This document shows, piece by piece, positions 9,074-38,276 of a stretch of DNA of 64,000 nucleotides. Position numbers and translations under genes: made by a program. The stretch lies in NCBI GenBank assembly GCA_963693365.1, contig CAVNZM010000005.1, positions 10,749,728 to 10,813,727 on the forward strand, given 5' to 3'. The notes under the pieces were generated by a model. That model had not been told where the DNA came from. It did not search any database and saw only the letters and a program-made list of their open reading frames with translations. Each line of letters starts with the position of its first letter. The stretch's first letter is position 1. The stretch comes from Amoebidium appalachense (Eukaryota > Protista > Ichthyosporea).

Positions 9074-9544
9074 ACTACAATGAGGGGCGCGGCACCCTGT
9101 GGATGTGACGTCATCAAAGATGACGTCACATCCACACGGTCCCGCACCCCTCAGGATATGGGATATGTGAATATGAGATATGTGATATCTGTGTACACAT
9201 ATCGCGATATGGCATATATGTGATATGGGTGGATATATGTACATGAGCACGTGCACACACTGTGTGTGTGTGTAAAACACGTGCAGAGCACGTGGTATCA
9301 ATTAAATGATTAAACAATTAAAGAGAGAGAGGGCGGAACACGTGTACGCGTACGTGTACGCGTACATGTGGTGCGTACGTGTACACAAGTGCGGATCAAA
9401 GGAATGCGAAGGTTTGCGCAAGGCGTCCAATGGGAATTCGAATTCTGAATTCCATGTACAAGGCGTCCAATGGTATTACGGATGCGCAGGGCGGCCAATG
9501 ATAATTCGGCTCAAAAAAGCAAATTGCCGCACAAGGCGTCCAAT
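9074..9544 (+). repeat. Left terminal inverted repeat
   Basis: Reverse complement of 37846-38276, with a few substitutions and a ~40-bp extra segment near 9431-9470. Confidence 0.95.
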
Positions 9545-9870
9545 GAGCATTAAGGACAGCACATTCCATCCCCAAGGCGTCCAATGAGCGCCCGGATCGG
9601 TCAATCTGGGTCTCTTATTGGACGCCTTAGGTACACAGGCGGCCGCCGCGACCACACACACACACACACACAAACAAACACGTACCGACGTTGTTTTTGC
9701 AAGATGTTTGCTTTGGAGATTTATTGCACAGGCACAGGCTTGTTATTTTGCATGCTGTTCTTTATTGAGGCGTTGCCCTGGCACAGCCAGGATTAGCCTA
9801 GTAATTATTAAGTAGATTAATACTTGAGATTTATAAGATTACAGCCTGAGATCTAAGGTTACATTTCAAG

Positions 9871-12800
9871 ATGTTCAGAGAGAGCCAGGAAGAGTTTGAA
9901 GATGACCTGTTGCGGGCACTGGATGCCGACCCGCAACAGACCCTGCAAGCCCACCCGTTTCTGCAGGCCATGTTGGCCCCACCACCCCCACCCCCACCCC
10001 TCCCCGGCCTCCCCCCCGCCCCCGCCCCCATCAACCACCCCGATGACCCCCAGATCATTGCCATGCCCGCTGAGGGCAACTGGCAGCTGCGTTCCCGTGT
10101 CGATGACATGCAGGCACGGGGACTGGGTGTGCGTGGTCACACCCTCGAGTACCAACCCCTGCGCACCCTTGACGTCACCGAGTTCCCCCAGTTCTTTGCT
10201 GCCATGCTGTTTGATGCCATTGCCCGTGCAGATGTGCAGGTGGGGGACATGCTGATTGTGCGTATCATCAGCCTGCACGTGCAGGCCAACGGTGTGGACA
10301 ACCAGGTGGGGGATGACGGCAACCCCAATGCCGATGTGACCAACCGTCGTGTGTTTACGGCCGGCCCCATGGACGTGTTCAATGGTGATGTCAACGCCGT
10401 GGTGCTCAAGCTGATGGAGAACATACGTCAACGTACCCAGAGTGCAGCCGAGACCTTCATGGACGGCCGATCCAGCGTGCATCTGACAGTGGCCCGGCCC
10501 AAGGACATGGTGAGGAGGGGGGCCTGCGGCACCCTGTCCACCACCACGGGGGTGAATGCACGGTGGCTGCAGGATCTGGTGGAGGCCAAGGCCGTGGTGG
10601 ATGTGACCGCCCTGGTGCAGGATGCCTGCACCACCGACGACCCACAGGTGACCGGGGAGACCCGCCTGGACCACCAGCAGCTTCACGGCTTTGCCTACGG
10701 CCCCAACTGTGCCCAGCTGTGCCTGGTGTACTGCATGGTGATGTGGCTCAAGAAGGCAGCCAATGGCAACGAGCAGGCCAACCTGCCCACCGAGCACACA
10801 CGCAAGGTGCTGGGCAAGGGGGGCAACCTCATGGATCGCAAGGACCACCACGTGCTGTGCCACCTGCTGACCCCGGGGGATGTGCTGGGGATGGGCAACA
10901 ACGGGGGTCAGATCTTCGGGCTGTGGGGTGTGCAACCTGCTGTTCCCCCCCACAGATCCAAGGAGCCACTTCAAGGACCGCTACCTGCGGAGATTGGTGA
11001 GGGCCACCCACGTGCTGTGGGCCAAGTACGGCCTGCCCGTGCCTGCAGAGGACGGCCTGACGGCGGATGAGCTGGGTGCAGCCGTGGATGCCCTCAACAC
11101 GGCCATTGCCGAGCGGCCCGAGTCAGTCACCCGCCTGCGGTTGGTGGTGGTGGACATGGACAGCAAGGGCAGGGTGCTACGCCGGTACGGGGACCTGAGC
11201 ACGGCCCTGCCCCCCGGCAAGCTGTGCACCATGTACATGGCCCACTCCCAGAAGCTGGGGCACTTCACGGCCATCACCTCGAGTGTCAGCACGACCATCG
11301 AGCGCCTGCGGCACGACAACCACACGGGGGAGGCACGTCGGAGCCTCAGCACCTGCTTCCACTGCAACCAGACCGTGCAAGCCAAGAACATGGGGGTGCA
11401 CCGTTGTGTGAACCGGTGTGAGAACTGTGGATCAAAGGGGGACCGCAACGACCAGGCCAACGCCTGTGTGTGGACCCCCGAGCGCCGTCTGCAGCTTGCA
11501 CGGGCAGGGGAGGAGGCATGGCCTTACCGTTGTGACGACTGCTGTGGCCTCTTCCCTTCAGCCAAGTGCATGGCCAACCACAGCACCAGGCTCAAGGGGG
11601 CAGGAGCCGGGGCCAGTGGCAAACGGCAATCCTTCTGCGACAACGTGTTCTGGTGCCGGTTGGCCACGTGCACCCACGGCCTGCAGGGGTACAGGGTGGT
11701 GGGCAGTGGGGATGATGCCCGCAGGGTGTGTGTGTCGGGCAACCCTGCCGGCCGGTTCATCTACAAGTTCAAGTACGCCAGCGTGTGCCGGCTACGTCGG
11801 TTGCACACCGCCCAGGAGCAAGGGGGGTACGATGCAGGTGCAGATGCAGGAGCCAACGACGAGGGGGAGGGCTGGGGCTGGGGCACGGACACGGGGGAGG
11901 ACTCGGATGCCGAGGATGCCGACTCAGCCCCCCCACCCAGCCTTGCCGACTCGTCGGACGACGAAGGTGACGATGATGACAACGGCGATGGCATCGACCT
12001 CATGCAGATGTCTGAGGGGGAGGGGGATGACGGGGGTGAGCACGGGGGCAAGAAGAAGGACGACACGTGGACACAGCACCTGTGCACCGACTACGACTGC
12101 AAGGGCTGTGGGGGGTACATGCCCGGCAACCACACGTGCCTCATACGCAGCAAGCGTGACCAGCGACGTGTGTACATGTGCACGCACACGGATGCAGACG
12201 GCACGGCGTGCGGCAGGGTGGCGTGCTACTCCAACGAGCATGGGCAGGGGGAGGAGGGGGAGGGGGAGGGGGATGGGTCACCTGCACGGCAGAGGGCCAG
12301 GGTGGATGGTGCCGACGGCAGGGTGGGTGCACACGTGTGCAAACGGCACGTGCCCGACGACGATGGCAGCAGGGGGCCGTGGAAGCAGACCCGGCAGCCC
12401 ATCAGGGACATCGTGCTGGACTTCGAGACCATGCCCGTGCCCGCCCCCGACCACACGGCCGAAAACCCCCACTTCATCCACATCGTGTACCACGCCGTGG
12501 CCATGTACGTCGAGCCAATGGACGGCCAGCCCTCAACCCCCATCGTCTTCTGGCCGGAGGACTCGGCCGACGGCAAGAACGGGTGGGATGTGCTGATGGA
12601 GGACCACCACCACGTGATTGACAAGGTGGTGGCAAGTGGCTGTTCGACACACCAACCCATGCCGGCGGCCGGGTGTACTGCCACAACGGCAGCGGCTTTG
12701 ACTTCCACTTTGTGACCAAGAGGGTGGTGGGCAGCCAGGACTACGTGTACGTGCCCATCATGGCCAACAGCAAGATCAAGTCCTGCCGTATACGCCACTA

Positions 12801-15490
12801 CGTCAAGAATGCCGGTGCACCAGCAGCCCCCGTGCCCATGCGGGTGGATGGTGATGGTGATGGTGATGGTGATGGTGCCGATGGCCATGGCCATGGCCAC
12901 GATGGCAGATGGCCATGGTGATGGCCATGGTGATGGCCATGGTGATGTGCAGCAGGCAGCAGCAGCAGCAGGCACCGGCCGGAAGAGGAGGCACGGGGGG
13001 CAGAGGGGGGACGGCAGCCGCACGACGGTGGTGGAGCTGACGTTCGTGGACACCCTCAACTTCCTCACCATGTCGCTGTCGGACGCCGGCAAGGCCATGG
13101 GGTGCCAGGAGACGAAGGGCCACTTCCCCCACCGTGCAGCCACCTTTGCCAACTTCAAGGCCGGCCACATCCCCTTCCCCGGGCCCGAGGACTTTGGGGC
13201 CCAGGACATGAAGCCCAAGCAGCATGCTGCCTTCATGCAGTGGTGGCGGGAGGAGCAGGCACGGCTGCAGGGGCAGGCACCGGCGGGCACGTGCTACGAC
13301 ATTGCCCAGCAGTGCGAGGACTACTGTGTCAAGGATGTGGTGCTGCTGCAGCAGGTGGTCAAGGCCTTCATGTCGAAACTCATCGAGCTGACGGGCATCG
13401 ACCCCTTCACGTGCGTCACCCTTGCTTCCCTCGCCATGCACTTCTGGATCACGCAGGCCATGCCCAAGGACGTGGCCGTGATGCGTGACCAGACCATGGG
13501 CAACGTGAACAGCAGCAAGAAGGAGCAGGAGTACATCGACTACGTCACCCACGGCCTGGGGGTGGGGCCAGACGACGTTGCACGGCACGTGGCCACCGGG
13601 TACGACCCCCACGGCAGGGCCACGGCCGATGCCAAGGCCACCCACGACGACGGCACGTGCACCCACTACTTCTTCCACGGGTGTGTGTTCCATGGGTGCC
13701 CCGACTGCAACAGGCACGAGGATCTGACGATGAGGGTGGTGAAGAGGCCGGCCAGGGAGGCCTACGACAGCACCATGGCCCACGAGAGGTACATCCGTGC
13801 CCAGGGGCACAAGGTGCAGAGCATGTGGGAGTGCAGGTGGGACAGGCTGAGGCAGAGCCCCGAGGTCAAGGCTGCCCTTGCAGCACAGGCGGCACGGAGG
13901 GAGGGCACCGGCAGGGTGGCCCCCGTGCCCACGGGCCCGGTGCAGTTCCGTGATGCCTTCTTTGGTGGCCGTACGGAGGTCATCACCCGTCACATCGAGG
14001 TCAAGGAGGAGGACTGGCCGGAGGCCGGGCTCAAGTACGTCGACGTCACCTCCCTCTACCCGTACGTGATGATTGACAAGTACATGCCGGTGGGCAAGTC
14101 ACAGTGGTTCACGTCACTGCCCATCAAGACGGAGGACCACCCCACGGCCATCGTCACGGATGCCCAGGTGCTGAAGGAGAGGCTCGACAAGACGTGCCGT
14201 ATGACCCCCGGCTCCCCCCAGGCCAGGACCAAGGGGTACTTTGGTGTTGCACGTGTGAGGGTGCTCCCCCCCAAGGACCTGTTCATCCCCGTGCTGCCTG
14301 TGCGTATGACGGGTGCCCAGGGGTACGACAAGCTGGGCTTTGTGCTGTGCCGGGCCTGCAGCAGCAAGGAGGAGGCCCGGGCCACCTGCATGGACGAGGA
14401 CGGCAACCCCAGGGTACGTGAGCACACACTGTGCACACACACGGACGAGGAGAGGGCACTGGTGGGCACGTGGACGACGGAGGAGCTGAAGGTGGCCGTG
14501 CGTGATGGGTACACCATCCTCGACGTGTACGACGTGGTGCACTTCAAGAAACGCACCAAGAACCTCTTCCGGAAGTACGTGCAGACGTTCCTGAAGGTGA
14601 AGCTCACCAGCACCACCGTAGATCCAGCCGACATCCCCGCCCTCGTGCACCTGTTCAAGGAACACTACGGCATCACGGTGGCCGCCCACGAGTTCGAGCC
14701 CAACCCGGCCCTGCGTACCATCAGCAAGCTGTTTCTGAACAGCCTCTGGGGCAAGCTGGTGCAGAGGGCAGGGCTGGACACCATCGAGTTTGTCGACGAC
14801 GTCGACAGGCTGAGGCTGCTGGTGACGAACCCCAACCTGCTGGTGCTCGACGTCGAGCCCATCGGCGAGCAGAGGGTGGCCATCAAGTACCGGCCCAAGA
14901 AGGAGACGGCCCCACCCCCCTCCTACGCCAACATTGCCATCGGCACGTTCGTGACGGCCCATGCCCGGCTGCACCTCTACGGGGCCCTCCGGTCCCTCTC
15001 CCCCCAGCAGGTGGTGTACATGGACACCGACTCCATCGTCTACCACTACGACAGCAGGGTGCCCCACCTCAGCCACAACATCGACTCCACCAACGGGGAC
15101 TTGCTGGGCAACTGGAAGAACGAGACGTCGACACCCATCGTCGAGTTTGTGGGGGTGGCCCCCAAGACGTTTGCCTACCGCACCCAGGACGGCAAGACCG
15201 ACGTGAAGGTCAAGGGCATCACCCTGTCCCGCCGGGCGGCCGACATGGTGAACCTCCCCAGCCTGCGCATGCTGGTGCACGGCGAGCTGCCGAGTGTGAG
15301 CGTCACCAACCACCGGCTGCTGCGGGAGCCCGTGCCCGGGGTCCCCCACAACTACCACCTGGCCAGCAAGGACCAGCGCAAGACACAGTCGGGGGCGTTC
15401 GACAAGAGGGGGGTGTTCGAGGCGGCCGACGGCAGTGTACGCAGCTACCCCATCGGGTGGGCGGCACCGGAGGGGAACCTGCAGTTTTGA
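9871..15490 (+). pseudogene. polB: Protein-primed family B DNA polymerase with long N-terminal extension, split by 3 apparent frameshifts (~10920, ~12632, ~12908); true decay versus homopolymer/assembly error is unresolved
   Basis: Motifs lie collinearly over successive frames: putative OTU-like Cys (PNCAQLCL) in ORF 9871; His (LGHFTAI), CxxC fingers and ExoI (IVLDFET) in ORF 10880; ExoII (YCHNGSGFDFHF) in ORF 12673; ExoIII and polymerase motifs in ORF 12809. Confidence 0.8.
12809..15490 (+). CDS. polB: pPolB catalytic segment (exonuclease C-part, VSR-like insert, palm)
   Basis: FVDTLNFL, YCVKDV, FHGCVFHGCPDC, FFGGRTE, YVDVTSLYPYVM, LCRAC...CTHTDEERALVGTWTTEEL, KLFLNSLWGK, YMDTDS, KVKGI are Maverick/adintovirus-type pPolB signatures. 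Confidence 0.96.
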   Translation: MPVHQQPPCPCGWMVMVMVMVMVPMAMAMATMADGHGDGHGDGHGDVQQAAAAAGTGRKRRHGGQRGDGSRTTVVELTFVDTLNFLTMSLSDAGKAMGCQETKGHFPHRAATFANFKAGHIPFPGPEDFGAQDMKPKQHAAFMQWWREEQARLQGQAPAGTCYDIAQQCEDYCVKDVVLLQQVVKAFMSKLIELTGIDPFTCVTLASLAMHFWITQAMPKDVAVMRDQTMGNVNSSKKEQEYIDYVTHGLGVGPDDVARHVATGYDPHGRATADAKATHDDGTCTHYFFHGCVFHGCPDCNRHEDLTMRVVKRPAREAYDSTMAHERYIRAQGHKVQSMWECRWDRLRQSPEVKAALAAQAARREGTGRVAPVPTGPVQFRDAFFGGRTEVITRHIEVKEEDWPEAGLKYVDVTSLYPYVMIDKYMPVGKSQWFTSLPIKTEDHPTAIVTDAQVLKERLDKTCRMTPGSPQARTKGYFGVARVRVLPPKDLFIPVLPVRMTGAQGYDKLGFVLCRACSSKEEARATCMDEDGNPRVREHTLCTHTDEERALVGTWTTEELKVAVRDGYTILDVYDVVHFKKRTKNLFRKYVQTFLKVKLTSTTVDPADIPALVHLFKEHYGITVAAHEFEPNPALRTISKLFLNSLWGKLVQRAGLDTIEFVDDVDRLRLLVTNPNLLVLDVEPIGEQRVAIKYRPKKETAPPPSYANIAIGTFVTAHARLHLYGALRSLSPQQVVYMDTDSIVYHYDSRVPHLSHNIDSTNGDLLGNWKNETSTPIVEFVGVAPKTFAYRTQDGKTDVKVKGITLSRRAADMVNLPSLRMLVHGELPSVSVTNHRLLREPVPGVPHNYHLASKDQRKTQSGAFDKRGVFEAADGSVRSYPIGWAAPEGNLQF

Positions 15491-15954
15491 GTGGGGGGGA
15501 GGGGTAGGGGGGAGGGAGGGGGGTCAGTTAGGAGGTAGTCTAGCAGTGGAAAATTATGTGGTGTGTTTGTTAACTTAGCATTAGAAGAAAGAAAAATGGG
15601 GTGCAGAGTGCACGGGCAGGGGGGTCACCGGCAGAAGAGGAAAAAGATGGTGTTTTTAGGCATACACCACGTGCACCGTATGCACGAGGGGAGGCAGCCA
15701 ATAAATTCAGAGCTTAATGCAAAACCAAGCATGTCCAATGTGTCCTTCGGCAAAAGCAACACCAACACCGGAACCATACACGTGTACAAGGGCGGGAGGC
15801 TTGGCAAAAAGAGCAGGCACCAGCACATATAAAAGGCACACACGTGTGCACAGACACGTCACTTTTTTCCAACACAAAAACAGTCAACATCACGAATTAG
15901 GTGAACTTCGGCCGAAACACACACACACACACACACACTGACACGGAAAAAAAA

Positions 15955-16839
15955 ATGGACGAAGACACGTTGCTAAGTATGGTGGCCAACACCACGGACC
16001 CTGAGAAGCTGCTAGACCTGTGCCCCTTCCTCTACGACATGTACTGCAACACCACCACACAGCCACGGCCACGGCCACAGACACAAGGGTGCTGGTGGGC
16101 ATACTGCAAGGAGAGGGAGACGTGCACGGGGGAACACGACGAATACGAGCACGACGGAGGGGACCAGGAGTACGTGTACGAGGAGGGGGGAGGGAGGGGG
16201 GAGGGGGAGGGGGAGGAGGAGGAGGAGGAGGACTGGGTGTACGACGGGAGGGGGTGGGAGGGCAGCGACGGGGAGGGGAGGAAGACGTATGAGGGGTGCA
16301 CGGCCTTCTGGGACAGAAAGAGGTCACAGCCATACAGACACATTAACCACTTCAAGCAGCTGCTGCAGTCGGTGCAGGGCCTGAATGCGAGTATGGGTGA
16401 CATGCAGGAGGGGGTGGTGGCAGCATTCAGGGGCGTGCAAGGCATAGAGAACGCCGACCAGGCAAGGAGGGTGCTGAGACAGAGCAAACTCACCCAACAC
16501 TACACACGCGTGCCTTACATACTTAACAGGTTGTACGGGCACCCCCTCCCCAGGTTTACGTGCGAGCAGTTGGAGGTCTTGACGGGCATGTTTAAGTTTT
16601 GCTTGTCGTGGCACCGGAGACACAAGGAGGACACACGGAAGAACTTTGTGGGGTACCCCTTCCTGTTGGTGAAAATGGTAGGGTTAGTGCGTGGTATGGA
16701 CGCGGGAGTAATAGCCAGGCTGGTGCCCACGGTCAAAAGCAAAGTGACTAGAGTAAAGAGCGATAGGGTGTGGGCACGGCTGGAGAGGGACCTTAAAAAC
16801 TACCACATGCTAGTGGAACATAACATGTTCTGCCTGTAG
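15955..16839 (+). CDS. Poxvirus VLTF3-like late transcription factor homolog
   Basis: YRHINHFKQLLQSVQG...SKLTQHYTRVPYILNRLYGHPLP...RKNFVGYPFLLVKM...VKSKVTRVKSDRVWARLERDL follows the NCLDV VLTF3 pattern (Y.R.NHF; YY..IPYI; RKNFL.Y.Y.L.K; LKS..K...D.IW); ATG at 15955. Confidence 0.82.
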   Translation: MDEDTLLSMVANTTDPEKLLDLCPFLYDMYCNTTTQPRPRPQTQGCWWAYCKERETCTGEHDEYEHDGGDQEYVYEEGGGRGEGEGEEEEEEDWVYDGRGWEGSDGEGRKTYEGCTAFWDRKRSQPYRHINHFKQLLQSVQGLNASMGDMQEGVVAAFRGVQGIENADQARRVLRQSKLTQHYTRVPYILNRLYGHPLPRFTCEQLEVLTGMFKFCLSWHRRHKEDTRKNFVGYPFLLVKMVGLVRGMDAGVIARLVPTVKSKVTRVKSDRVWARLERDLKNYHMLVEHNMFCL

Positions 16840-16971
16840 GCGGGTAGCCAGGTGCTACCTGCTCTGCATTTAGAGACAACACTGTGCACAATAGAATGGG
16901 GTTGTGGCAGGCGTGGGGTGGTAGTGGGGGTGTGCCAGCACGTGCCCACACTACCGTCGACCCGCCCAGGT

Positions 16972-17163: not shown

Positions 17164-17202
17164 GATGGTGCTGCAGGCTGTTTACACTAGCACACACAAT
17201 AT

Positions 17203-17424: not shown

Positions 17425-17455
17425 GTCTGCCGCCGCTGCTGCCTAATGACGTAGA

Positions 17456-20240
17456 TTATTTGCCGGCACCCTTCTTCCTCTTCTTCTTCTCCTTGCTGGC
17501 TGTCTTGGTGCGGTACACCCCACGGGCAGACTTAGGGACCGGGCCACCCTCGACATACCCGGCGGCATGGCTGGCCGGCACAACCCCTTGCCTGTGCACG
17601 TGTGCACGCACGTGCGGGTGGTGTGGGTGCATGGGCATGTCCCCCCTCCCGTAGTTGGCATGATGGTCACGGTGCACGGCCGCTGCCAGCCCAGGGGTGG
17701 CTGTGGGTGAAGGGGCACCGGTGGGGGTGGGCACGGGGAAGCTCGGACCATGTGGCCACGTGGGGGTGCCTGTGGGGGTGGGGTGAGCAGTAGCCGTGGC
17801 TGTTGGCGTGTACGGTAGGCGTGGTACGCCAGTGTTGTTACCTTTGGTAGCAACCTTCAGCATGTGCAGAGCTACCCCCTTTGCTACCTTCTGGAGTTCT
17901 CCGAGGGTGTCACGGTTCCCCAACACGGCCTCTTGCAGGTTCGGGCCACCGCCACCAACACCGCCGTCAGCAATAGCCGGCTGGCCACCGTCACCATGGT
18001 GGCCCCTTACCACGTTGCCCAGAAGCTGGCGTGCTGCCCCCATGAACACCCCCCTCACGTAGGAGGCCACGGCAGGGTGGTCCCACCCCGTCTGGTCCTC
18101 CCTCACCCGCCTTGTGAACTCCTCCGGGCTCTCCCGCCCGAGCATGTCGAGGTGTTCCCGCAACCCCTGCCAAAAGGGACTCAGCACCCCCTCCTCGTCG
18201 GGTCGGGCGGGGGACGTGGGGGGTCTCCACACGGCGGCAGCACCCCCTGTTTGCGAGACCGCCCTCTTGGTGCTTGGGTACGTCGTCACGTCACCGTCAT
18301 AGCCGATGGCTGCTGGGGTGGGGCTGGGGCTGGGGCTGGGGGTGGGTGTGGTGGTGGTGGTGGGGCCGTCAATACCGAGGGGCAGGTCTGAAAGCTTCCC
18401 CCCTCGCACACGGTACTCATACAGGGCCTGCCTCGAGGCCTTGGGCTCTTCCTTCTTGAGTCCCCAAGCTACGAATTTGATGGCTTGGTACGGGGCGAAA
18501 CCCTGCAGAGCTTGATAATACTCGGGGTGTTTGTCCAACAACTCTTTCTCAAAGTCCCACATGGGCTCCTGGAACTCGTAATTGGCTGGTGCCAGAGCGT
18601 TTGCGACGTCCAAGAGCGTGACGTTGGACAAGGGTAGTTTCATTTTCCACACATCCAGCTCGTTGGTGGGCGTCGGTGTAGGTGTGACTGTGGGGTGGGC
18701 CTGGGACTCGGGCGTTGGGGGCGCAGGCACGAGGGGGAAGGCTTCGGCCCAAATTTGCAACGGCCACCCGCCAGACTTTGGCGGCCGTGGGGGTATCATG
18801 GCCGGCGGGTCGGGTCCACGGTAGGCAGGAGACTGGGGGTACGGCGTTGGTGCCGGTTGTAGTGGTGGGGGGAAGGGTATGGCCGGGGCAGTCGGCCTCC
18901 GCCGTGGCCCGTTACGACCCATGGGCAGGCCGGTACCGTTCCCTTTGGCGGGCGACTGTGGCGGGGGTTGAACCGTCTGCGGCGGGAAGGGTATGGGTGG
19001 TCCGTCCGGCTTGGCCGGCAGGTGGGGGGCCATGGGGGTCTGTGTGTTGAGCTCCGGGGGGAAGGGTATGGGGGTGGCCGGTTCCTTGGGTGCCTTCCAA
19101 TACAAGGACTCTGGCGGGGTGGGCATGGTGGGACCGGTCATATGGGGTGCCAAGACCCCCACATGGAGTGGGGAGGGGCGGTTGGGGTCGTTGCCGGCCA
19201 GGGTAACCGGCCGTGGACGTGGCCAGGCACTGGTCGTTGGCTCGTCGTCGTCGTCGTCGTCATCGGGAGGCGTGTGTAGAGGTTGTACCGGGGCTACGGT
19301 GGGTCCGTGGGCTACCGCAGGCTCCACAACGTCGACGTGCTTGCTTGCCACGGCCACCGGCCCGGGCAGTGACCCAGGACGGGTTGTGCTGGTCCGTGTC
19401 ACCGGCAGACCGGTGCCTTTCCCTTTGCCGGGCACCCTCGACCGGTCCGGCTTGGACGTCGGGAGGGGCCGGCCCGTCGAGGGGGGAAAGGGTATGGGTG
19501 GACCGTTGGGCTTGGCCGGCAGGTGGGGTGCCGTGGGAGTCTGTGGGTCAAGCTCTGGGGGGAAGGCCACGGGGACACGGGGCGGGGGAGGCACCTCCCA
19601 TTTCAGGGACTCTGGCGGGGTGGGCATGGTGGGGCCGGCCACATGGGGCGCCAGGGGCCCGAAGGAGGGTGCGGGCTCGTTATGGGGCCGGCGGCGTGGT
19701 GCGTTTGGGGCAGGGGTTTTGGGCGGTGGAGGTGGCTTGGGAGGTGGGGGGTACGGTATGGCCGGAGCCCGGCCTGGGGGTGTGGCCGGGACAGGTGGGG
19801 GGAGGGGGTGGGGTCGGCAGGGGGGCCACGTCGGGCAAGGGGGGCGGAGGTGCCCTAGGTCTGTTCCACACGTACGTGCTACCGTACTTGTCACCCAAGT
19901 GCTCATAGCCAGGGTGGTAGGCTACGTCTACCTTCACCACCTCCGGCAACCGACCACCCCACCGCTCCAGTGGCTGGTTGGGGTCCAGATATGTGTGGGC
20001 CTTCTTGAAAAATGCCTCAACCCCACCCCTGACCAACGCCTTGTAGCTATGTCGGAGTAGTGAAAGTTTGGGAGTCCCAAAGTACCCAACGGTGGTCTCC
20101 CGCCACTTGCCTGAATGCACGTCTTCCGGGTACTGGTACTTGACAGTGTACCTGCCCAGGGGCCAAACCCTACTCGTCTCAGAGTCCAAGTCATCAGCGT
20201 GCCCATGAGGCTGCTGCACGTTGGGGGACATGGTGGACAC
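17456..20240 (-). CDS. Large proline-rich protein (~930 aa) with an internal ~58-aa duplication and basic C-terminus; one apparent frameshift near 19800
   Basis: ORF 19680-20240 (globular N-terminus) appears to join ORF 17456-19906 across a G run; LAPH..GPTMPTPPESL.W...FPPEL..QTP.APHLPAKP.GPPIPFPP occurs twice. Confidence 0.65.
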
Positions 20241-20264
20241 GGTGTTGTTGTAAACTGGTGTTTA

Positions 20265-20642
20265 TTATTTCGCAGCGTACTGCGCCATGGGTTGCCGGGC
20301 AAAGCTGCCCTGGGGGTCACTGCTGTGCCCCACCCTCACGGGCGTAAAGTCGACATAGTAGGACTTGCTGTTGAGGGGGAGCCCCCTGCTGCCCAGACCG
20401 CTCCTGCCGGGCATGGAGGGCACGTGGTTGTCGGCGGGCAGGTTGTTGAAGGTAGGCAGCCGGCTGAAGGGCACACCGTACACGCCGGCCTGGAAGGTGG
20501 CGTCCGTGTGCCGTGCCCGGTAGGGGGCCGCGTAGGCAGCCTCGTACTCGGCCTCGGGTGCCAGCTTGTAGCCGTACACGGCCGCCTGCGTGGGTGTGGG
20601 CGCCAGTGGAATACCGTTGACGTTGGCCATGGCCGCGTTCAT
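20265..20642 (-). CDS. Hypothetical viral protein downstream of the MCP (possible virion core protein)
   Basis: ATG at 20642, strong C/G third-position codon bias, adjacent to the MCP. Confidence 0.65.
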   Translation of the reverse strand: MNAAMANVNGIPLAPTPTQAAVYGYKLAPEAEYEAAYAAPYRARHTDATFQAGVYGVPFSRLPTFNNLPADNHVPSMPGRSGLGSRGLPLNSKSYYVDFTPVRVGHSSDPQGSFARQPMAQYAAK

Positions 20643-20685: not shown

Positions 20686-22425
20686 TTAAGCCTCCACCGT
20701 CACCTCACGGGCACCGGACAGCACCAGCACGTTCTCGTGGTGCACGAAGGTGTCGAGGGTCAGGTCGTCCTGAACCGTGGGTTCCCCGACCCCGGCGGAG
20801 AACTTTTCCGTGTTCAGGTGCAGCAGAATGGGGGTGGCGTCGGAGCTGGTGTCGAGCCCAGAGTACAGGTCACGGTCCCTCTCGAGGTCCAGGGCGATCA
20901 TGAACTGCTTGTCGGGCCAGGACGTGGAGTTGTACATGCAATCGGCCGTGACGTCACCCAAGAAGTAGAGGGCCTTAGCCAGCTCGGCCCATGCCTCGGC
21001 GCAGTTGTTCTTCGACACACGAATTTCGTCGAGGGGCTTCTGGTAGGGGCCTATCTTGATCTGGTAGCTCGTTATGTTGCTGCGTTCCGACCTAAACGAC
21101 TCGTAGCCGGCCTGGGCCCACGTGTTGCCGTTACGAACGAGGGAGAGCAGGGACTTGACGTTTCTCCCCCGGAACGAAATGTGCAGGTCGGCAGGGCTGC
21201 CCCCCTTGACGTAGCTCTGGAAGTGGGTGAACGTGCTGTAGGGAATGTACACGTTCTTCTCCATCAAGGCCTTTTCGAAGCCGGCCGTGTAGACGGCGTT
21301 CCACTCGATGATTTCGCAGTGGAGGACGGGGTTGATGATCTCGTAGGCGACGTCCTTGAGCCAATTCTCGTTCTCGGTGGGCACGTACAACACTTGGTTT
21401 GCCTCACCCAACGACAGCTCGATCTGCACCTCCCCCATGTACGACAGCGGGAGGTACCGGCCGGACCGCATGAGGCCGAGCTTGAGCTGGTGAATGTAGG
21501 TGAAACCGTCGGTGGCGTCGATTTGGGCCTGGATGTTGGCCTGGTGGGGAGGCCACTTGGCGGCGCGGGCGGTGTAGTCGAGGAAGCGGTCGGCAGGAAT
21601 GCCGTCCTTGCCCGGCAGCTTGTCGACATCGGGGGCAAACAGGGCCTCGTTGGGCAAGGGGTCCGTCCCCCTCGCCTTCTCGATGCCAAAGAGCTTTTTG
21701 AGGGGGTCGGGGTTGAAGCACGAGTACTGGGCGGCCGTGGTGGTGTTCCACTTGTCCGCATACTCCCAGTCGGCGTCCTGCGGGCTGTACGTCCCGTGCA
21801 TGCGGCCGGCGGGGCTGTTGCCGTAGTCGGCCGACGACAGGAACCGTTCCAGGTTGATCATCAGGTGGTTGTAGCCTGAAATGTCCTCGACGGTGGTGCC
21901 GTTGATGGACACACGGGCCCGTTCAAACGGTGCGGCCGAGGAGCAGAGGTGGCCCCCCATCATGGCCATCCCCTCCAGGTTGCGGACCTTGAGGGGGAAA
22001 ATGTCGGTTGCCGCCGCGTTGTTGTTGAGGGTGTTGTTGGCCAACGTCTCGCTCTGGGGCACGGTGGTGCCCTCGTAGTCCCTTATGGTGGTGTCGATCT
22101 CGAGGGGGTGGGCCAGCTGACCGGGGAGGGGGAACCTGCGCAGCCTCTCCACCTTCACGCCCACGTACTCGGGGGCGTTGGGCACGTTGGCCTTGAACTG
22201 GAACGTCATGTAGGAGTTGAGACAGTCCAGGAAGCCCACGGCCGGCAGGGAGAACCGAATCACGCGCTGCCCCTTTGAGCTGTACGTCGAGCCGGTCACC
22301 GGGTAGGTCTTGACCGTCGACCGGCGGTTGATGTGGCTGAGCTCCACGGGCGAGTACGTGCCGGCGTCCGTCAGCTTGTGGTAGGCCATGTTGAGGGGCA
22401 CGGAGGCGTCGTAGGGGGCTGCCAT
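20686..22425 (-). CDS. Major capsid protein (double jelly-roll, PLV type); alternative ATG at 22455
   Basis: ~580 aa; N-terminal VPLNMAY...TYPVTGSTYS...VIRFSLPAVGFLDCLNSYMTFQF, FERARVSINGTTVEDISGYN, YLPL and C-terminal FMIALDLE...SGLDT are typical PLV MCP motifs; next to the packaging ATPase. Confidence 0.88.
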   Translation of the reverse strand: MAAPYDASVPLNMAYHKLTDAGTYSPVELSHINRRSTVKTYPVTGSTYSSKGQRVIRFSLPAVGFLDCLNSYMTFQFKANVPNAPEYVGVKVERLRRFPLPGQLAHPLEIDTTIRDYEGTTVPQSETLANNTLNNNAAATDIFPLKVRNLEGMAMMGGHLCSSAAPFERARVSINGTTVEDISGYNHLMINLERFLSSADYGNSPAGRMHGTYSPQDADWEYADKWNTTTAAQYSCFNPDPLKKLFGIEKARGTDPLPNEALFAPDVDKLPGKDGIPADRFLDYTARAAKWPPHQANIQAQIDATDGFTYIHQLKLGLMRSGRYLPLSYMGEVQIELSLGEANQVLYVPTENENWLKDVAYEIINPVLHCEIIEWNAVYTAGFEKALMEKNVYIPYSTFTHFQSYVKGGSPADLHISFRGRNVKSLLSLVRNGNTWAQAGYESFRSERSNITSYQIKIGPYQKPLDEIRVSKNNCAEAWAELAKALYFLGDVTADCMYNSTSWPDKQFMIALDLERDRDLYSGLDTSSDATPILLHLNTEKFSAGVGEPTVQDDLTLDTFVHHENVLVLSGAREVTVEA

Positions 22426-22438
22426 GTTGGTGGTGTGT

Positions 22439-32257: not shown

Positions 32258-32615
32258 GTGTGACCTGCCCATTCTGGAAAAACCATCCGTCTTGAAAAAA
32301 AACAGAGACGCCCCACCAACCAGCCACCGCGAAAACTGGCCATTTTGGGATGATTGCGCAAACAGGGGACGCCCCACCAACCAGCGACCGCCAAAACTAG
32401 CCCAATTTGGTCGCCTTCCAAATCAGGCTAATCCTCCATGTGCGGACCCCAGGCCCAGGTCCGGATCAGGCCCGTGCGGGTCGGTTCGGGCCGGCCTGGT
32501 CAGATTTGGGTCGCGTCGACCCGTTAACGACCCGGCCCGACCCGACCCGGGCTAATCTGGACCGGCCCGTGGCCCGCGAAATTTTCACAGCACACAGGTG
32601 CGGGACTGTGTGATC

Positions 32616-33161
32616 ATGGGGCTGGGCAGCTGCTGCGGGGTGTACAAGGTCACGCAGGACAAGAGGAAGGCCGGAGTGGACACTGACAAGGTGCAGACAC
32701 CAGCATGGGTGCTGGATGCACTCGAAAAGGAGTTTGGCGCACTCAATGACCCCTGCCCCATCACCTGGCGGGAGGGGGAGGACCCTTGCGCACTCACAGA
32801 CGACGACGTGTGGTCCACCGAGAAAATAAACTATGTCAACCCTCCCTTCTCTGAGATTCCCCCATTTTTACGCATGGCCATACGAATGTACATATCCAAG
32901 GGTAGAAAGAGCGTGCTGCTCGTGCCTGCACGCACGGAGGCACGCTGGTTCCATGACCTGGCCTTCAGGTACGCCGCAGAGATACGCATCCTGAGGGGTA
33001 GGATCAAGTTTGAGGGGTTCAAGAGGCCATCGCCAGAGGGCGTGTGCCTGCTTTTGTTCACAGAGCCTCAGCCTGTCGGTGGCCCGCGTGTAGTGTCGTG
33101 GATGCCTGAGGCATACCCGCGCAGCTCAAAGGCAGGGGCCGTGTTGGGGCTGGATTTCTAG
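32616..33161 (+). CDS. Phage-type DNA N6-adenine methyltransferase (Dam-like)
   Basis: QTPAWVLDALEKEFG..DPC, W....YVNPPFS, VLLVPART...WF and EIRILRGRIKF are signatures of the small phage Dam family. Confidence 0.9.
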   Translation: MGLGSCCGVYKVTQDKRKAGVDTDKVQTPAWVLDALEKEFGALNDPCPITWREGEDPCALTDDDVWSTEKINYVNPPFSEIPPFLRMAIRMYISKGRKSVLLVPARTEARWFHDLAFRYAAEIRILRGRIKFEGFKRPSPEGVCLLLFTEPQPVGGPRVVSWMPEAYPRSSKAGAVLGLDF

Positions 33162-33242
33162 CTTAATGACTAAGATCTACTAGACTAAGTAGGGTCTAGA
33201 TCATAAAAATGTGTGTTAGAGTGTATGTAGTGCGTGCACACC

Positions 33243-33506
33243 ATGGCCAACACCTACCAAATCGTGCTGAACGACCAGTTTCAGCCCCTCACTGCGCGTA
33301 CGTCAAACGCCACGCACACAGACTTTAGCTACTATGGCCAGCAGGCGATGGCACAGGCCGTTGCGGACAAGATATGCCCGCACGGTACCCGCCACCCCTT
33401 CTTCCTCAAACCAAGCACCATGGCAGGGTCTGCAGCAGGCCGATTTGCTCGCCCCAGACCCACCTTTGCGGCACTCAGGCGTGCACATGGCAGGCCCATG
33501 CACTGA
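33243..33506 (+). CDS. Small hypothetical viral protein
   Basis: ATG in ACCATGG context, preceded by the AAAAATGTGTG motif. Confidence 0.5.
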   Translation: MANTYQIVLNDQFQPLTARTSNATHTDFSYYGQQAMAQAVADKICPHGTRHPFFLKPSTMAGSAAGRFARPRPTFAALRRAHGRPMH

Positions 33507-33603
33507 CCGTTAGTGTACGTAGTAGGCCATGGCCAAGCGGGCAATTGGCAACCAAAAATAAAAATAATGTGCATGCATAAGTAAACGTGCAAGTCACGTC
33601 ACC

Positions 33604-34185
33604 ATGGGGGTGTCATCGCAAGGCAGGAGCGGCAACACGCGTGTCATCTACGTGCAGAACCGGCCAAACAAGGCCTCAGAGGTAGCCAAGTGGGTGGGGG
33701 CCCTGGCGGGCGGTGCTGCCTTGGGGGCAGGGGGGTACTATGCATGGAAGCACAAGGGGGACATTGCGAGGGGGGTGGGCAACTACATGTACAACAAGGC
33801 TGCGGATGCTGCCACCTACACTGCAGGGAAGGCGGGGGAGGCGGGGGGGACGGTGTTCAAGGGCCTCAAGGGGGTAGCGCGTGCCACAGGCGATGCTGCC
33901 ATGCAGGGCACGCAGCGTGCAGGGCAGGGCGCGCAGAATGGTGCATTCAGTGCGTGGAAGACCCTGAGGAATGGCACGAGGGATGCGGGCAACTACCTGC
34001 TGCACAACACCCAGGATGCGTTGGGATATGGTCCTTATAACTTGAATGCTGCAGGCACACGCACGGGAAACAGCTACGAGTGGAGAGGGGGTGGAGGGGG
34101 CGGTGCGCAGGTGCTTGTCGGCGGTAAGCCCTACGTCTGGCCGCCAGCCAGGTCGCCAAACGTATCGGGACGCGGCATCCTCTAA
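33604..34185 (+). CDS. Gly/Ala-rich protein with a hydrophobic segment and amphipathic helices (possible membrane-active virion protein)
   Basis: Starts MGVSS; WVGALAGGAALGAGGYYAW followed by A/G/K amphipathic repeats. Confidence 0.7.
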   Translation: MGVSSQGRSGNTRVIYVQNRPNKASEVAKWVGALAGGAALGAGGYYAWKHKGDIARGVGNYMYNKAADAATYTAGKAGEAGGTVFKGLKGVARATGDAAMQGTQRAGQGAQNGAFSAWKTLRNGTRDAGNYLLHNTQDALGYGPYNLNAAGTRTGNSYEWRGGGGGGAQVLVGGKPYVWPPARSPNVSGRGIL

Positions 34186-34470
34186 TGGAACCTTCCGTTC
34201 ATGGTAAGTGTGCAGGGAAAAACCGTTGGCGGGCGGTGCGAGCGGCCAATCAAATTTTGTAGAATTTGTTGACTTGCATTCCATTGGCGCCTCCCCTGCG
34301 CTCCTATTGGACGCCTAGGGCAACAGGAGTCACCGAATTTTGGAGCACGGTAGCGTGTGTGCACCGGAGGGCACAAAAGCCACCTGCAAACGTTCCTTCT
34401 TCAAACACTTTTTCTTATATTCTAAGCCACTCTAGCCTGGTCTTTTTGCAAGCAGCGAACTTTGGAAACC

Positions 34471-35616
34471 ATGGCAGACCTCTCCTTCCTGCCCCCTCTA
34501 GATCTAGACGATGCTGATGTTCTTGCTGCCGCCGCAGCAGCCATTTCTGTGCCAGCCCGCAGGCCTCCTCCTGGCCGCACCTTCTCCTGGCATCTCAAAG
34601 ATTTGGATCTTGACACTGTTCTGCTTCAACCCTTCTACGCATCCTACCGCACGCTTGCTGAGGGGTATGCAGCACAGCCCAGTGTTTCCGCCAACGCAGC
34701 GTCCTTCCTCCTCTCCGCCAAGAAAGGTGACTTCTTCGCTGGCTATGATGCAGGGGGCGAAGTCTACTTCCAAAAACGCTTCACGGGTCTAGATGACTTT
34801 GATGGGGCATGGCTCCCTGAGATGCTGGTGCGTGGTACCATCTCTGAGCCTGCAGAACTGGCTGAACTGCACGGCAAGTCGCTTTTGGCAACACTCGCGT
34901 GCCGCAACGCCCTCATGCTCAAGGGGGTGGCTGCTGCTGTGGTAGACATCCTCCTACCGCAGTTCACAGAGCATGAGAGATCCACTAGGCACAAGGTAGA
35001 GACAGACCCTCAGTTGGTTGGCAACTACATGCAGAGGTACCTGGAGGAGATAGAGGCCAACTGGGAGCCCATCGTCGGGATGTGCAAGGCAGGACTCACT
35101 CCCCACAGGGAGAGAGAGGTGGCCCGCCACTTGGCTCGTGTTGTTGCTGGCTTCCTGCAGACCATGGTGGCCACTGCAAAGGCAGCCAAGTTGAAGTCCA
35201 CGCCCCTCTTCAAAGGGGTCGCCATGGATGTCCTCCATGACATGCAGGCATTGCTGCGTGGGGTTGCGAATGAGCGTATGTATTGTGCAGGTGAGAAGAT
35301 TGTGTTTGCAGGGCTGATCAAGAAAAACATCCACAAGGAGGCACCATCACGGCGCAAGTCCGGCACGTTCATCGACATTGCCCCCAAGGAGAAGGAAAAC
35401 CTTGCCCCCCTCCGCAGCAGCAGCACCAACAGCAACACCCCCTACAACAACAACAACAACATCATGACGGTCGGTGCCCCCTACTTCTACGGTAGGACCC
35501 GGGTGCCTAACTTACTTCGTACCTCAGCGGCACCGCCCCCTCAAGACTGTGAACCAAGGCTACATGGGCTAGTGCACAGGATAGGGGGGCTGTGCCCTAA
35601 ACTTTGCCATTTTTAA
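34471..35616 (+). CDS. Hypothetical alpha-helical viral protein (~380 aa)
   Basis: Long non-repetitive ORF, ACCATGG start, preceded by CCAAT-box cluster 34245-34316. Confidence 0.75.
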   Translation: MADLSFLPPLDLDDADVLAAAAAAISVPARRPPPGRTFSWHLKDLDLDTVLLQPFYASYRTLAEGYAAQPSVSANAASFLLSAKKGDFFAGYDAGGEVYFQKRFTGLDDFDGAWLPEMLVRGTISEPAELAELHGKSLLATLACRNALMLKGVAAAVVDILLPQFTEHERSTRHKVETDPQLVGNYMQRYLEEIEANWEPIVGMCKAGLTPHREREVARHLARVVAGFLQTMVATAKAAKLKSTPLFKGVAMDVLHDMQALLRGVANERMYCAGEKIVFAGLIKKNIHKEAPSRRKSGTFIDIAPKEKENLAPLRSSSTNSNTPYNNNNNIMTVGAPYFYGRTRVPNLLRTSAAPPPQDCEPRLHGLVHRIGGLCPKLCHF

Positions 35617-35703
35617 TTTTTTTAGTAAAGTACCTTAAAGTTTCAAGTTGAGCATGCCATGGCCTCATTAACATAGACACCGTTGTGATTTGTGTATACA
35701 TAG

Positions 35704-36330
<627 letters not shown>

Positions 36331-36709
36331 TGGTGTAACTTCTAAGTGTTGCTACCTAAAAGTGCGAAAAGAGATGATTGTGAAAATGTTTAAGAGTTTT
36401 TTCTAAGTTTTTTCTTCACAAAAAAACGAACGAAAACGAGACGAGACTGAGAGAGCCGACAGCTGATAGAGTGCACATGGGAGAAAAAAGTGTATACGTA
36501 ATATTACGTAACATTCAATTTCGCTTGATTTCATTGGCTCATAAGTTACGCAAAGTTCAAGTTGGCGCAATCATTTACTCTCTCACTCATGTACGTACTC
36601 AGTCAACTCAGTCGCGGCGGCACACAGTGTGTTTTTTTTTTTGGGAAGAAGTTTATTTCGTGGCATCACCCGGAGATAAAGAGATTCTGAATAAACAGAC
36701 ATGTGCCTA

Positions 36710-37627
36710 TTACATCCTGAGCATTTTGGCCTTGTCCTCCCCAGGCATGGGCGTGCCAGCACGCTTAGCCTGCCCCATGTCTACATCACCCCCCTCCCCC
36801 TCACTACCCGCACCATCACTGACCAACTCCATCAGACCATCTAACTCAAACACCTGAACCTTGCGGGCAACGAGCTTGGTGCGCACAGTGTTGTTTTTCT
36901 TGTTGTAGATGACGCTGGTGGCGGCAGCAGACACCCATGCAGTAACCTCACGGCACTTGGCACGCTGGGAGTTCATAAACTCCACAAACTCATCCACAGA
37001 GGCCGCGTTGTTGCCCAGCTTGAAGAGGCAGGGGTTGCGGCCAGTGGGGTTGGGCAATTCCACCGTCACGTTGAAGTAGGTGTCGCCCAGTGCCCCCTCC
37101 ATGTCCGCCTTGCTGACGGGGTTGGCACCCAGCACCTCGTACAGGTTGGGGCTGTGTCTGGACCACAGGCTGCTGCTGGTCTTGACGGCAACGGTGTCCA
37201 GATCAACATCCTTGAGCATCTCGTGGTCCTTGTGCATCCACAGCACGTCCTTGGCCATGCTGCACACGTAGGGCCACAGGCCAACGGCGTAGGCCACCTC
37301 AAAGGGCTCAGGGTGGCGCTGGGACTTGATCTTGATTGTGGTTTTGTCGTAGGCAGACAGGTGGGTGCCCAGTTCAATCAACATCTGCCCGTTGATGTTG
37401 ATGTTGGGCAGGTTGTACAGCTGCACCACCAGCACGTCGTTCATGACCCAGGGTGCACCCATGGTGGCCTTGCCCACACCGTTGAGGAACACCTCCTTGT
37501 ACAGCACCATCTTGGCCCCCTCAACGCTGCTGTTGATGTTTTCTTTGCCACTGCTTGCCGCGGCGATGCTGGTCCTTTTGACGGTGGACAGACCAGTCAT
37601 TTGACGCAGCTGGGTTGGCTTGACCAT
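36710..37627 (-). CDS. 305-aa viral protein, candidate OB-fold single-stranded DNA-binding protein
   Basis: ORF well supported by codon bias; SSB function inferred only from C-terminal beta strands (VTAWVSAAATSVIY...KLVARKVQVF) and an acidic tail. Confidence 0.6.
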   Translation of the reverse strand: MVKPTQLRQMTGLSTVKRTSIAAASSGKENINSSVEGAKMVLYKEVFLNGVGKATMGAPWVMNDVLVVQLYNLPNININGQMLIELGTHLSAYDKTTIKIKSQRHPEPFEVAYAVGLWPYVCSMAKDVLWMHKDHEMLKDVDLDTVAVKTSSSLWSRHSPNLYEVLGANPVSKADMEGALGDTYFNVTVELPNPTGRNPCLFKLGNNAASVDEFVEFMNSQRAKCREVTAWVSAAATSVIYNKKNNTVRTKLVARKVQVFELDGLMELVSDGAGSEGEGGDVDMGQAKRAGTPMPGEDKAKMLRM

Positions 37628-37845
37628 TTTGCTGTTGCTTGGGGGGTGTGGTGAACGTTACTGTGGTGTGCACCTCGACTGTGACTGTCTGGCTCATGTT
37701 TGGTTGGTGAGATGTTGCCTGTGTGCGGCTGTTTATGTACACGGCGGTAGGATGCAGGGTGCGTTTCTGGCCAATGAGGACCGTAATCCCTGTTCCCTGT
37801 GCCCTCATTGGACACCTAGAACCACATGTGCCTGTCTAGATTCCG

Positions 37846-38276
37846 ATTGGACGCCTTGTGCGGCAATTTGCTTTTTTGAGCCGAATTATCATTGGTCGCC
37901 CTGCGCACCCGTAATACCATTGGACGCCTTGCGCAAACCTTCGCATTCCTTTGATCCGCACTTGTGTACATGTACGCACCACATGTACGCGTACACGTAC
38001 GCGTACACGTGACACGCCCTCTCTCTCTCTTTAATTGTTTAATCATTTAATTGATACCACGTGCTCTGCACGTGTTTTACACACACACAGTGTGTGCACG
38101 TGCTCCTGTACATATATCCACCCATATCACATATATGCCATATCGCGATATGTGTACACAGATATCACATATCTCATATTCACATATCCCATATCCTGAG
38201 GGGTGCGGGACCGTGTGGATGTGACGTCATCTTTGATGACGTCACATCCACAGGGTGCCGCGCCCCTCATTGTAGT
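37846..38276 (-). repeat. Right terminal inverted repeat
   Basis: Reverse complement of 9074-9544. Confidence 0.95.

What the first reader, a model, noticed from the sequence alone, without database searches (positions are those of the whole stretch)
9074..38276. Complete hybrid endogenous virus: Maverick-type replication and integration, PLV-type capsid, giant-virus late transcription factor
Seen: TIRs, a TSD and about 20 dense ORFs. The pPolB (with FHGC.FHGC insert and LCRAC...ERAL.GTW) and rve integrase resemble animal Mavericks/adintoviruses, while the MCP and penton look PLV-type. The element also carries VLTF3, a Dam methylase, three fibre-module paralogs and a ~7-TM protein. At ~29 kb it is longer than the usual 15-25 kb Polinton. 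Inference: a distinct lineage of integrating virus with its own late-gene regulation.
Basis: partly seen in the sequence, partly recalled or inferred. Interest (0 to 1): 0.88.

Follow-up and report, generated by a model that had tools for sequence, protein, structure and literature searches.

The report
Published protist provirus with mixed modules
A complete 29-kb DNA virus sits integrated in the genome of what is likely an ichthyosporean protist; it matches an already published virus family, but its capsid is of the Polinton-like-virus type, so the published label 'adintovirus' is likely wrong.

Summary
The element is real: 29,203 bp (9074-38276), ~480-520-bp inverted ends, and a 5-bp target duplication confirmed against empty copies of the LTR it landed in. 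It encodes a Maverick-type pPolB with a VSR insert, rve integrase, double jelly-roll capsid, A32 ATPase, VLTF3 and Dam. It is not new: Sarre et al. 2024 describe ~30-kb 'adintoviruses' in the ichthyosporean Amoebidium with VLTF3, Dam, both capsid proteins and PolB, and already propose that VLTF3 came from a giant virus. The closest named capsid relative is from the ichthyosporean Sphaeroforma. That argues against the adintovirus label, but such swaps are documented as common, and environmental genomes with pPolB plus VLTF3 or rve on this capsid type turned up here. 'Complete' needs a caveat: pPolB has three frame breaks and the integrase one. Own late regulation is inferred; a candidate promoter (AAAAATGT, 28-41 nt upstream of five genes) is a lead only.

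The parts
9069..9073 (.). left target-site duplication, GTAAA
   Evidence: empty-site copies at 6163, 7001, 7622, 8393
9074..9591 (+). left terminal inverted repeat; begins ACTACAATG; internal palindromes and four GGCGTCCAAT boxes
9871..15490 (+). protein-primed DNA polymerase B gene (N-terminal region with candidate vOTU Cys/His motifs, exonuclease, VSR-like insert, palm), split by three frame changes near 10,930, 12,630 and 12,810-12,980
   Evidence: Pfam 8e-37; frames; 24-33% identity to homologs, the named ones from animal genomes
15955..16839 (+). VLTF3-like late transcription factor, 294 aa, open frame
   Evidence: Pfam PF04947 7.9e-10; alignment with two environmental PLV VLTF3
17456..19906 (-). 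proline-rich 816-aa ORF with internal duplications, no family
19680..20642 (-). two small ORFs (183 and 125 aa) downstream of the capsid gene, no family
20686..22455 (-). major capsid protein, double jelly-roll, PLV-type; start may be Met1 or Met11
22439..23242 (-). A32-like packaging ATPase
   Evidence: Pfam 3.7e-9; homologs and tree
23247..24774 (.). four small ORFs (78 aa Cys-rich -, 202 aa +, 96 aa +, 81 aa -), no family
   Evidence: codon score
24831..25976 (-). candidate minor capsid protein (penton)
   Evidence: weak: C-terminal penton motif aligned, hhalign E 0.14
25975..27498 (+). fibre-like protein 1 (shared N-terminal module, coiled-coil repeats)
   Evidence: tblastn to a large S74-bearing ORF of L003, E 7e-4
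27517..29523 (+). 668-aa protein with the same N-terminal module (fibre-like 2, inferred)
29526..30290 (-). multi-pass membrane protein, 6 predicted segments
30342..30917 (+). 191-aa protein with the same N-terminal module (fibre-like 3, inferred)
30939..32257 (+). rve-type DDE integrase; one frame break at a C-run near 31,000
32616..33161 (+). Dam-family N6-adenine methyltransferase (NPPF motif)
33243..35616 (+). three ORFs (87, 193, 381 aa), no family
36710..37627 (-). 305-aa ORF read inward from the right end, strong codon score, no family
37801..38276 (-). right terminal inverted repeat
38277..38281 (.). right target-site duplication, GTAAA
8693..9073 (+). host target: first part of the LTR of a small non-coding LTR element; it continues at 38277-38343

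Best explanation
This is an integrated copy of a mid-sized linear DNA virus, likely of an ichthyosporean protist and likely a member of the family published as Amoebidium 'adintoviruses', that joins a Maverick-type polymerase and integrase to a Polinton-like-virus capsid module and a VLTF3 gene. Shown: the DDE integrase signature of insertion (5-bp duplication) and the gene set. Inferred life cycle: the virus enters the nucleus; pPolB copies the linear genome from the inverted ends by protein priming; VLTF3 would direct host RNA polymerase II to late promoters, since the element has no RNA polymerase; the ATPase would pack DNA into a double jelly-roll capsid with penton and fibres that matures without a viral protease; the integrase puts some genomes into chromosomes, where host cytosine methylation silences them (published for the family). 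This copy likely cannot replicate alone unless its polymerase breaks are assembly errors.
For: Gene set, size and ends equal the published description: VLTF3, Dam, minor and major capsid, PolB, ~30 kb, terminal repeats, 44 copies, four clades; Fig. S4B legend '29 kb' and Fig. S5B legend on VLTF3. Closest named capsid relative is Sphaeroforma arctica SARC_11267, 37%, 6e-38, sister pair in the tree (SH-aLRT 83). Flanks carry intron-rich eukaryotic genes. Thousands of variant contigs in 4 of 4 laid runs, another flank at 9074 and the empty site show a multi-copy family. Capsid profile hits 40 of 52 environmental loci found by ATPase; 24 of those loci scanned with Pfam carry SF1, SF3/D5 helicases, GIY-YIG, TET-associated glycosyltransferase, S74 fibres and multi-capsid arrays. 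Maverick control L053 (PF21738 3e-41): capsid not matched (hhalign probability 0.6%; phmmer E 6.6), yet its integrase is the best match of the window's. Protease pattern finds 3 control ORFs (Maverick L053, virophage L063, L061) and nothing in the element's six frames. Nuclear replication without RNA polymerase but with VLTF3 is the model for mriyaviruses. Candidate promoter AAAAATGT: 5 of 6 occurrences lie 28-41 nt upstream of a same-strand start; 5 of 23 upstream windows, 0 of 500 shuffles reach 5.
Against: The host was not identified directly and no sequence of the published elements was compared; identity with that family rests on description and on the Sphaeroforma relative. Only one Maverick control was available. 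The capsid profile was built from this protein's own hits and the loci were fetched with its own ATPase alignment, so the PLV association is partly circular; no named TsV, PgVV or Zephyr reference could be tested. Best structural matches are giant-virus capsids. The pPolB tree is unresolved and places the window on a long branch apart from the named animal sequences. The promoter motif was picked after looking, two of the five sites are arms of one palindrome, the capsid-gene site needs Met11 as start, and 3 windows also have it antisense. Published demethylation gave no capsid transcripts and no particles; a Dam from this family gave no methylation in E. coli.
Confidence: 0.65

Rival explanations
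1. Same anatomy, but the virus is a satellite of the Medusavirus-related giant viruses of the same host: it reactivates only on giant-virus infection and uses VLTF3 to plug into or compete with the helper's late transcription, as an inducible defence.
For: Giant-virus insertions and these elements share the Amoebidium genome, and the authors raise this idea; capsid genes stayed silent after demethylation alone; several PLV isolates are helper-dependent.
Against: It has its own polymerase, integrase and late factor; the Gezel-type giant-virus early promoter WWWWWTGWWWWW occurs in the element only 4 times, all inside the terminal repeats and none upstream of a gene.
Confidence: 0.25
2. It is a true adintovirus (Polintoviricetes) whose capsid has diverged and which lost its protease, as the published label implies.
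For: pPolB with VSR insert as in mollusc and marine-nematode pPolB2; named pPolB homologs are from animals; integrase closest to a Maverick's.
Against: PF21738 hits the Maverick control at 3e-41 but neither the window capsid nor any of 75 homologs; no protease pattern; in the supplement of Bellas 2023 the rows for six ichthyosporean assemblies have their capsid counts under 'iterative HMM searches' clusters, not under the Maverick-Polinton-Adintovirus columns.
Confidence: 0.07
3. It is a small relative of giant viruses (mriyavirus, Zora or Zephyr type) that kept VLTF3 from a common ancestor and gained pPolB and rve.
For: VLTF3 was considered diagnostic of Nucleocytoviricota; top fold matches are giant-virus capsids; about 30% of Zephyr VC123/126 members carry VLTF3 and some use pPolB.
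Against: Identity to those capsids is 7-13%; none of 75 capsid homologs hits Capsid_NCLDV or Capsid_N; no HUH, VLTF2 or RuvC among the scanned ORFs; the capsid profile also reaches Trimcap-like arrays.
Confidence: 0.1

Closest known systems
Amoebidium 'adintoviruses' (Sarre et al. 2024, PMC11244446)
   Same: VLTF3, Dam, major and minor capsid, PolB; ~30 kb (29 kb in Fig. S4B legend); terminal repeats; multi-copy; VLTF3 proposed as a giant-virus acquisition.
   Different: The passages and legends I saw classify them on PolB and do not mention integrase, TSD, missing protease or capsid type. I could not see the figures or compare sequences.
Maverick-Polintons / adintoviruses (Polintoviricetes), pPolB2 with VSR domain (Jeong et al. 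2023)
   Same: pPolB with VSR insert, rve integrase, A32 ATPase, TIRs, 5-bp TSD within the 5-8 bp range.
   Different: No adenain/Ulp1 protease found; capsid not of the PF21738 type; VLTF3 and Dam present; 29 kb against 13-25 kb.
Polinton-like viruses (Aquintoviricetes and Trimcap); environmental examples L043, L052, L058/L067, L001
   Same: Same capsid family and ATPase group, no protease; L043 and L052 pair it with pPolB and rve; L067 (19,988 bp, inverted ends) pairs it with pPolB and VLTF3; L001 has VLTF3.
   Different: None of these loci shows all of pPolB, rve, VLTF3 and Dam; their pPolBs lack the VSR motif; they are AT-rich (23-37% GC) against 60% here; L067 has no rve match.
MELD viruses of non-animal hosts (Starrett et al. 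2021, PMC8502044)
   Same: Adintovirus-like PolB and integrase joined to unrelated virion proteins (Blastocystis, fungi, algae); a VLTF3 homolog is listed in a MELD figure legend.
   Different: The VLTF3 entry is in the figure for viruses with non-PolB replicases.
Mriyaviricetes (Yutin et al. 2024, PMC11253617)
   Same: Small DJR viruses with VLTF3 and no RNA polymerase, inferred nuclear.
   Different: They lack DNA polymerase and integrase and need HUH, VLTF2 and RuvC; none of these three was found here.

Membership tests
Amoebidium 'adintoviruses' (Sarre 2024) | VLTF3, Dam, major capsid protein and family B polymerase in one compact element | tested here: met
   against the text
Amoebidium 'adintoviruses' (Sarre 2024) | minor capsid protein | tested here: inconclusive
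   hhalign E 0.14
Amoebidium 'adintoviruses' (Sarre 2024) | about 30 kb with terminal repeats, multi-copy | tested here: met
   29,203 bp; variant contigs and other flank
Amoebidium 'adintoviruses' (Sarre 2024) | ichthyosporean host; sequence kinship with the published insertions | tested here: inconclusive
   closest named capsid from Sphaeroforma; no host genome held; published sequences not available to the tools
Amoebidium 'adintoviruses' (Sarre 2024) | hypermethylated, silenced | not testable with these tools
   no methylation data
Polintoviricetes (Mavericks, adintoviruses) | pPolB plus rve integrase, TIRs, 5-8 bp TSD, A32 ATPase | tested here: met
Polintoviricetes (Mavericks, adintoviruses) | vOTU domain in pPolB | tested here: inconclusive
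   Cys and His motifs seen on either side of the first frame break; their assignment is from recall, no fold was run
Polintoviricetes (Mavericks, adintoviruses) | adenain/Ulp1 maturation protease | tested here: not met
   pattern finds 3 control proteases, none in six frames of the element; a very divergent protease is not excluded
Polintoviricetes (Mavericks, adintoviruses) | Maverick-type major capsid protein | tested here: not met
   PF21738 hits control L053, not the window or 75 homologs; one control only
Polinton-like viruses (Aquintoviricetes/Trimcap) | capsid and ATPase related to those of aquatic PLVs, no protease | tested here: met
   40 of 52 loci; gene content; ATPase tree; partly circular
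Polinton-like viruses (Aquintoviricetes/Trimcap) | assignment to a named capsid group (TsV, PgVV, Dino, SP67, Trimcap) | not testable with these tools
   reference HMMs are in a bioRxiv supplement that is closed; no named isolate among the sequence hits
Mriyaviricetes | no DNA polymerase; HUH endonuclease, VLTF2, RuvC | tested here: not met
   pPolB present; none of the three by Pfam, PHROGs or NCBIfam
Virophaviricetes | virophage capsid (PF21915/PF22031) and protease | tested here: not met
   control L063 hits both families and the protease pattern; the window hits neither

The most novel reading that the evidence does not exclude
The Amoebidium 'adintoviruses' are a misfiled, ichthyosporean-associated clade of PLV-capsid viruses (with a Sphaeroforma relative) that run a giant-virus-style late programme: VLTF3 recruits host polymerase II to an AAAAATGT promoter about 35 nt upstream of virion genes, giving the smallest system in which VLTF3 could be tested without any viral RNA polymerase or VLTF2.
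Probability: 0.3. Interest if true: 0.6.

Novelty: already known. Interest (0 to 1): 0.3.

Why it matters
As a discovery it matters little: the family, its size and its VLTF3 are in print. Two smaller points would matter. First, the label 'adintovirus' was taken to extend an animal virus family to a unicellular relative of animals; if the capsid is PLV-type and the protease is missing, only the polymerase and integrase link it to animal Mavericks, and that claim needs revising. Second, VLTF3 is a core giant-virus gene of unclear mechanism; a 29-kb integrated virus in a culturable host whose silencing can be lifted, with VLTF3 as its only recognisable transcription factor and a candidate promoter, is a compact test bed for it.

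Tried and rejected
No whole genome held, so sister copies were seen only as short-read contigs. Single-sequence fold of the capsid failed (pLDDT 30). Locus searches with the capsid, ATPase or VLTF3 alone and with alignment A3 found no relative in viral contigs; the metagenome scan gave 3 short loci. Profile search with A1 returned one protein. PDB sequence searches for capsid and VLTF3 gave nothing; the phage collection nothing useful. No RNA holder listed for the left third. Pfam alone does not detect these proteases (it missed control L063), so Pfam silence was not used as evidence. Idea that ORF 36710-37627 is a single-strand binding protein: no support. No earlier scan findings. No PLV or Maverick capsid appears among the listed solved-structure matches, which says nothing about class. 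Targeted insertion into LTRs: one site only, and other flanks look different, so no preference is claimed.
Full report
Observation. The element runs from 9074 to 38276 (29,203 bp). Its ends are inverted repeats, 9074-9591 and 37801-38276, with 455 of 471 aligned columns identical. It is 60% GC against 52-54% in the flanks. GTAAA is duplicated on both sides. The target is the LTR of a small non-coding LTR element, and the window holds four uninterrupted copies of that LTR: three read AAAGCA-GTAAA-AAACGG, one has an extra A, and the two flanks together match a sister LTR at 441 of 445 positions. This is direct proof of an insertion with a staggered cut. The flanks are intron-rich eukaryotic DNA with an ALG2-like and a DnaJ-like gene (names from recall).

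Genes. I genes covering 84% of the element. Pfam gives pPolB, VLTF3, A32 ATPase and Dam. The integrase has D, D and E motifs and matches DDE transposase families. The 589-aa ORF folds as a double jelly-roll (pLDDT 78; Z 27.7, rmsd 3.2 over 362 residues to a PBCV-1 capsid chain). The penton call is weak (E 0.14). Three ORFs share an N-terminal module; only the first has coiled-coil repeats and a weak match to another virus's fibre-like ORF, so 'fibre' is inference. The membrane protein has six hydrophobic segments.

State of this copy. A profile of full-length homologs finds consecutive parts of pPolB in frame 2 (11306-12169), frame 1 (12634-12795) and frame 2 again (from 13031), and codon scores place the start in frame 1, so there are three frame changes. 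Contigs of related copies differ by indels at or near all three places; as these are family members laid at 85% likeness, they cannot tell decay from assembly error in this copy. The integrase has one break at a C-run near 31,000; in 3 of 4 runs the single covering contig differs there by an indel, and in the fourth a contig with about half the depth does, so that break is probably an assembly error or private to this copy. All 4 laid runs hold hundreds to thousands of variant contigs, one shows another flank before 9074 and the empty site: a multi-copy family. Twelve of 24 listed runs hold half or more of the sampled words, under three coded organism labels.

What it is. The closest capsid relatives are unnamed assembly proteins (59%, 39%, 38%) and then SARC_11267 of the ichthyosporean Sphaeroforma arctica (37%, 6e-38). 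Sarre et al. [quoted passage not shown] Their Fig. [quoted passage not shown] After demethylation 144 of their genes (32%) were reactivated, but not capsid genes, and no particles were seen. The window's element fits this description in every listed point that I could test. I did not compare sequences, so membership is likely, not shown.

Is it a hybrid? Yes. pPolB carries the VSR-like motif, as do 25 of 39 database homologs of 700 residues or more; Jeong et al. 2023 (bioRxiv 2023.08.22.554363, passages) report a VSR domain as a mark of mollusc and marine-nematode pPolB2; named homologs are from animal genomes at 25-29%. The pPolB tree is poorly resolved and the window sits on a long branch. 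The integrase's best match among 63 loci is that of L053, a Maverick-like locus (1e-17). The capsid module points elsewhere. An ATPase alignment fetched 52 environmental loci; the capsid profile hits 40 of them at E below 1e-5. Pfam on 230 ORFs from 24 of these loci gave SF1 and SF3/D5 helicases, GIY-YIG nucleases, a TET-associated glycosyltransferase, S74 fibres and multi-capsid arrays, the content described for PLVs. The control L053 has a PF21738 capsid (3e-41) that the profile does not match; PF21738 hits neither the window nor any of 75 homologs. In the ATPase tree the window lies within a 60-row group (support 82) that excludes the Maverick and virophage rows, both long branches. A protease pattern finds the ORFs of L053, L061 and L063 and nothing in the element. 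Limits: one Maverick control, partly circular retrieval, no named PLV reference, and the best fold matches are giant-virus capsids at 7-13% identity.

How unusual is the hybrid? Not very. Bellas and Sommaruga 2026 (bioRxiv 2026.06.19.733378, parts 1-3 of 5 and passages; supplement closed) report frequent replication-module switches and VLTF3 in about 30% of two Zephyr clusters. Barth et al. 2026 (bioRxiv 2026.10.13.758929, parts 1-3 of 5) report extensive pPolB mobility between classes and a stable pPolB-DDE pairing. Starrett et al. 2021 (PMC8502044, passages and section 3.4) already had adintovirus-like PolB and integrase on unrelated virion genes in protists. Bulzu et al. 2025 (PMC12220804, passages) give 14-40 kb for PLVs and many with rve. 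Among my own loci, L043 and L052 combine this capsid family with pPolB and rve, L067 with pPolB and VLTF3, and L001 with VLTF3; VLTF3 was seen in 2 of 63 loci. None shows the full set. Two literature searches aimed at this family listed no paper that re-examines its capsid; of the listed papers I read only those cited here.

How it likely works. Integration by the DDE integrase is shown by the duplication. Protein-primed replication from the ends follows from the family (Krupovic et al. 2024, PMC11161782, passages). With no RNA polymerase gene, transcription must use the host's or a helper's enzyme; mriyaviruses, which also have VLTF3 and no polymerase, are inferred to be nuclear (PMC11253617, passages). 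I favour VLTF3 acting with host polymerase II on late genes. A lead: AAAAATGT occurs 6 times in the element and 5 of these lie 28-41 nt upstream of a same-strand start (capsid, 78-aa, 202-aa, third fibre-like and 87-aa ORFs); 0 of 500 shuffles of the 23 upstream windows reach 5. The motif was chosen after inspection, two sites share a palindrome, and the capsid site needs Met11. The Gezel-type giant-virus early promoter (PMC11502894, section read) occurs only in the terminal repeats. Dam may mark viral DNA with 6mA, an activity mark in ichthyosporeans, but a Dam of this family showed no activity in E. coli (bioRxiv 2026.05.21.726589, passages).

Verdict. Observation confirmed; hybrid reading supported; novelty claim not, as the family is published. 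What is left is a likely correction of its label and a testable promoter lead. Interest 0.3.

Noticed in passing
window 6085-9073 and 38277-38343: Nested cluster of a small non-coding LTR element (LTRs TGTTGG...CCAACA of ~470-545 bp with a variable 13-bp tandem array, ~305-bp internal part, GGTTATGGGCCCAG after the LTR, recalled as a copia-type primer site). Copies lie in both orientations, one inside another; the virus sits in one LTR.
   Followed up: partly
window 22459, 23519, 23549, 30301, 33205 (variants at 24197, 25945): Candidate shared promoter AAAAATGT 28-41 nt upstream of five starts; two sites form a palindrome between divergent ORFs.
   Followed up: partly
window 9422-9585 and 34240-34320: Four GGCGTCCAAT (CCAAT-box-like) repeats in the inner part of the terminal repeat; a similar ATTGGACGCC box recurs upstream of ORF 34471.
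   Followed up: no
window 35700-36330: Non-coding duplicated segment ending in a long GT microsatellite inside the virus, between two convergent ORFs; host-like in composition.
   Followed up: no
window 12820-12980: GGTGAT/GGCCAT repeat expansion inside the polymerase exonuclease region, at the third frame break; related copies have a much shorter stretch here.
   Followed up: partly
L067 (G001, 19,988 bp): Environmental PLV with inverted ends, pPolB, VLTF3 and the same capsid family but no rve match; its capsid and ATPase genes appear split, possibly by introns or frame breaks.
   Followed up: partly
L056:10438-13776, L057:12313-15804: ORFs of 1,113 and 1,164 aa with weak matches to the capsid profile (E 4e-7, 6e-8) next to pPolBs of 1,724 and 1,860 aa; possibly another group with enlarged or fused capsid proteins.
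   Followed up: no
window 42612-52850 (+) and 1500-1730 (-): Host genes: an ALG2-like mannosyltransferase in many short exons with poly-C/poly-G and CA-rich introns, and a DnaJ-domain exon (names from recall).
   Followed up: no
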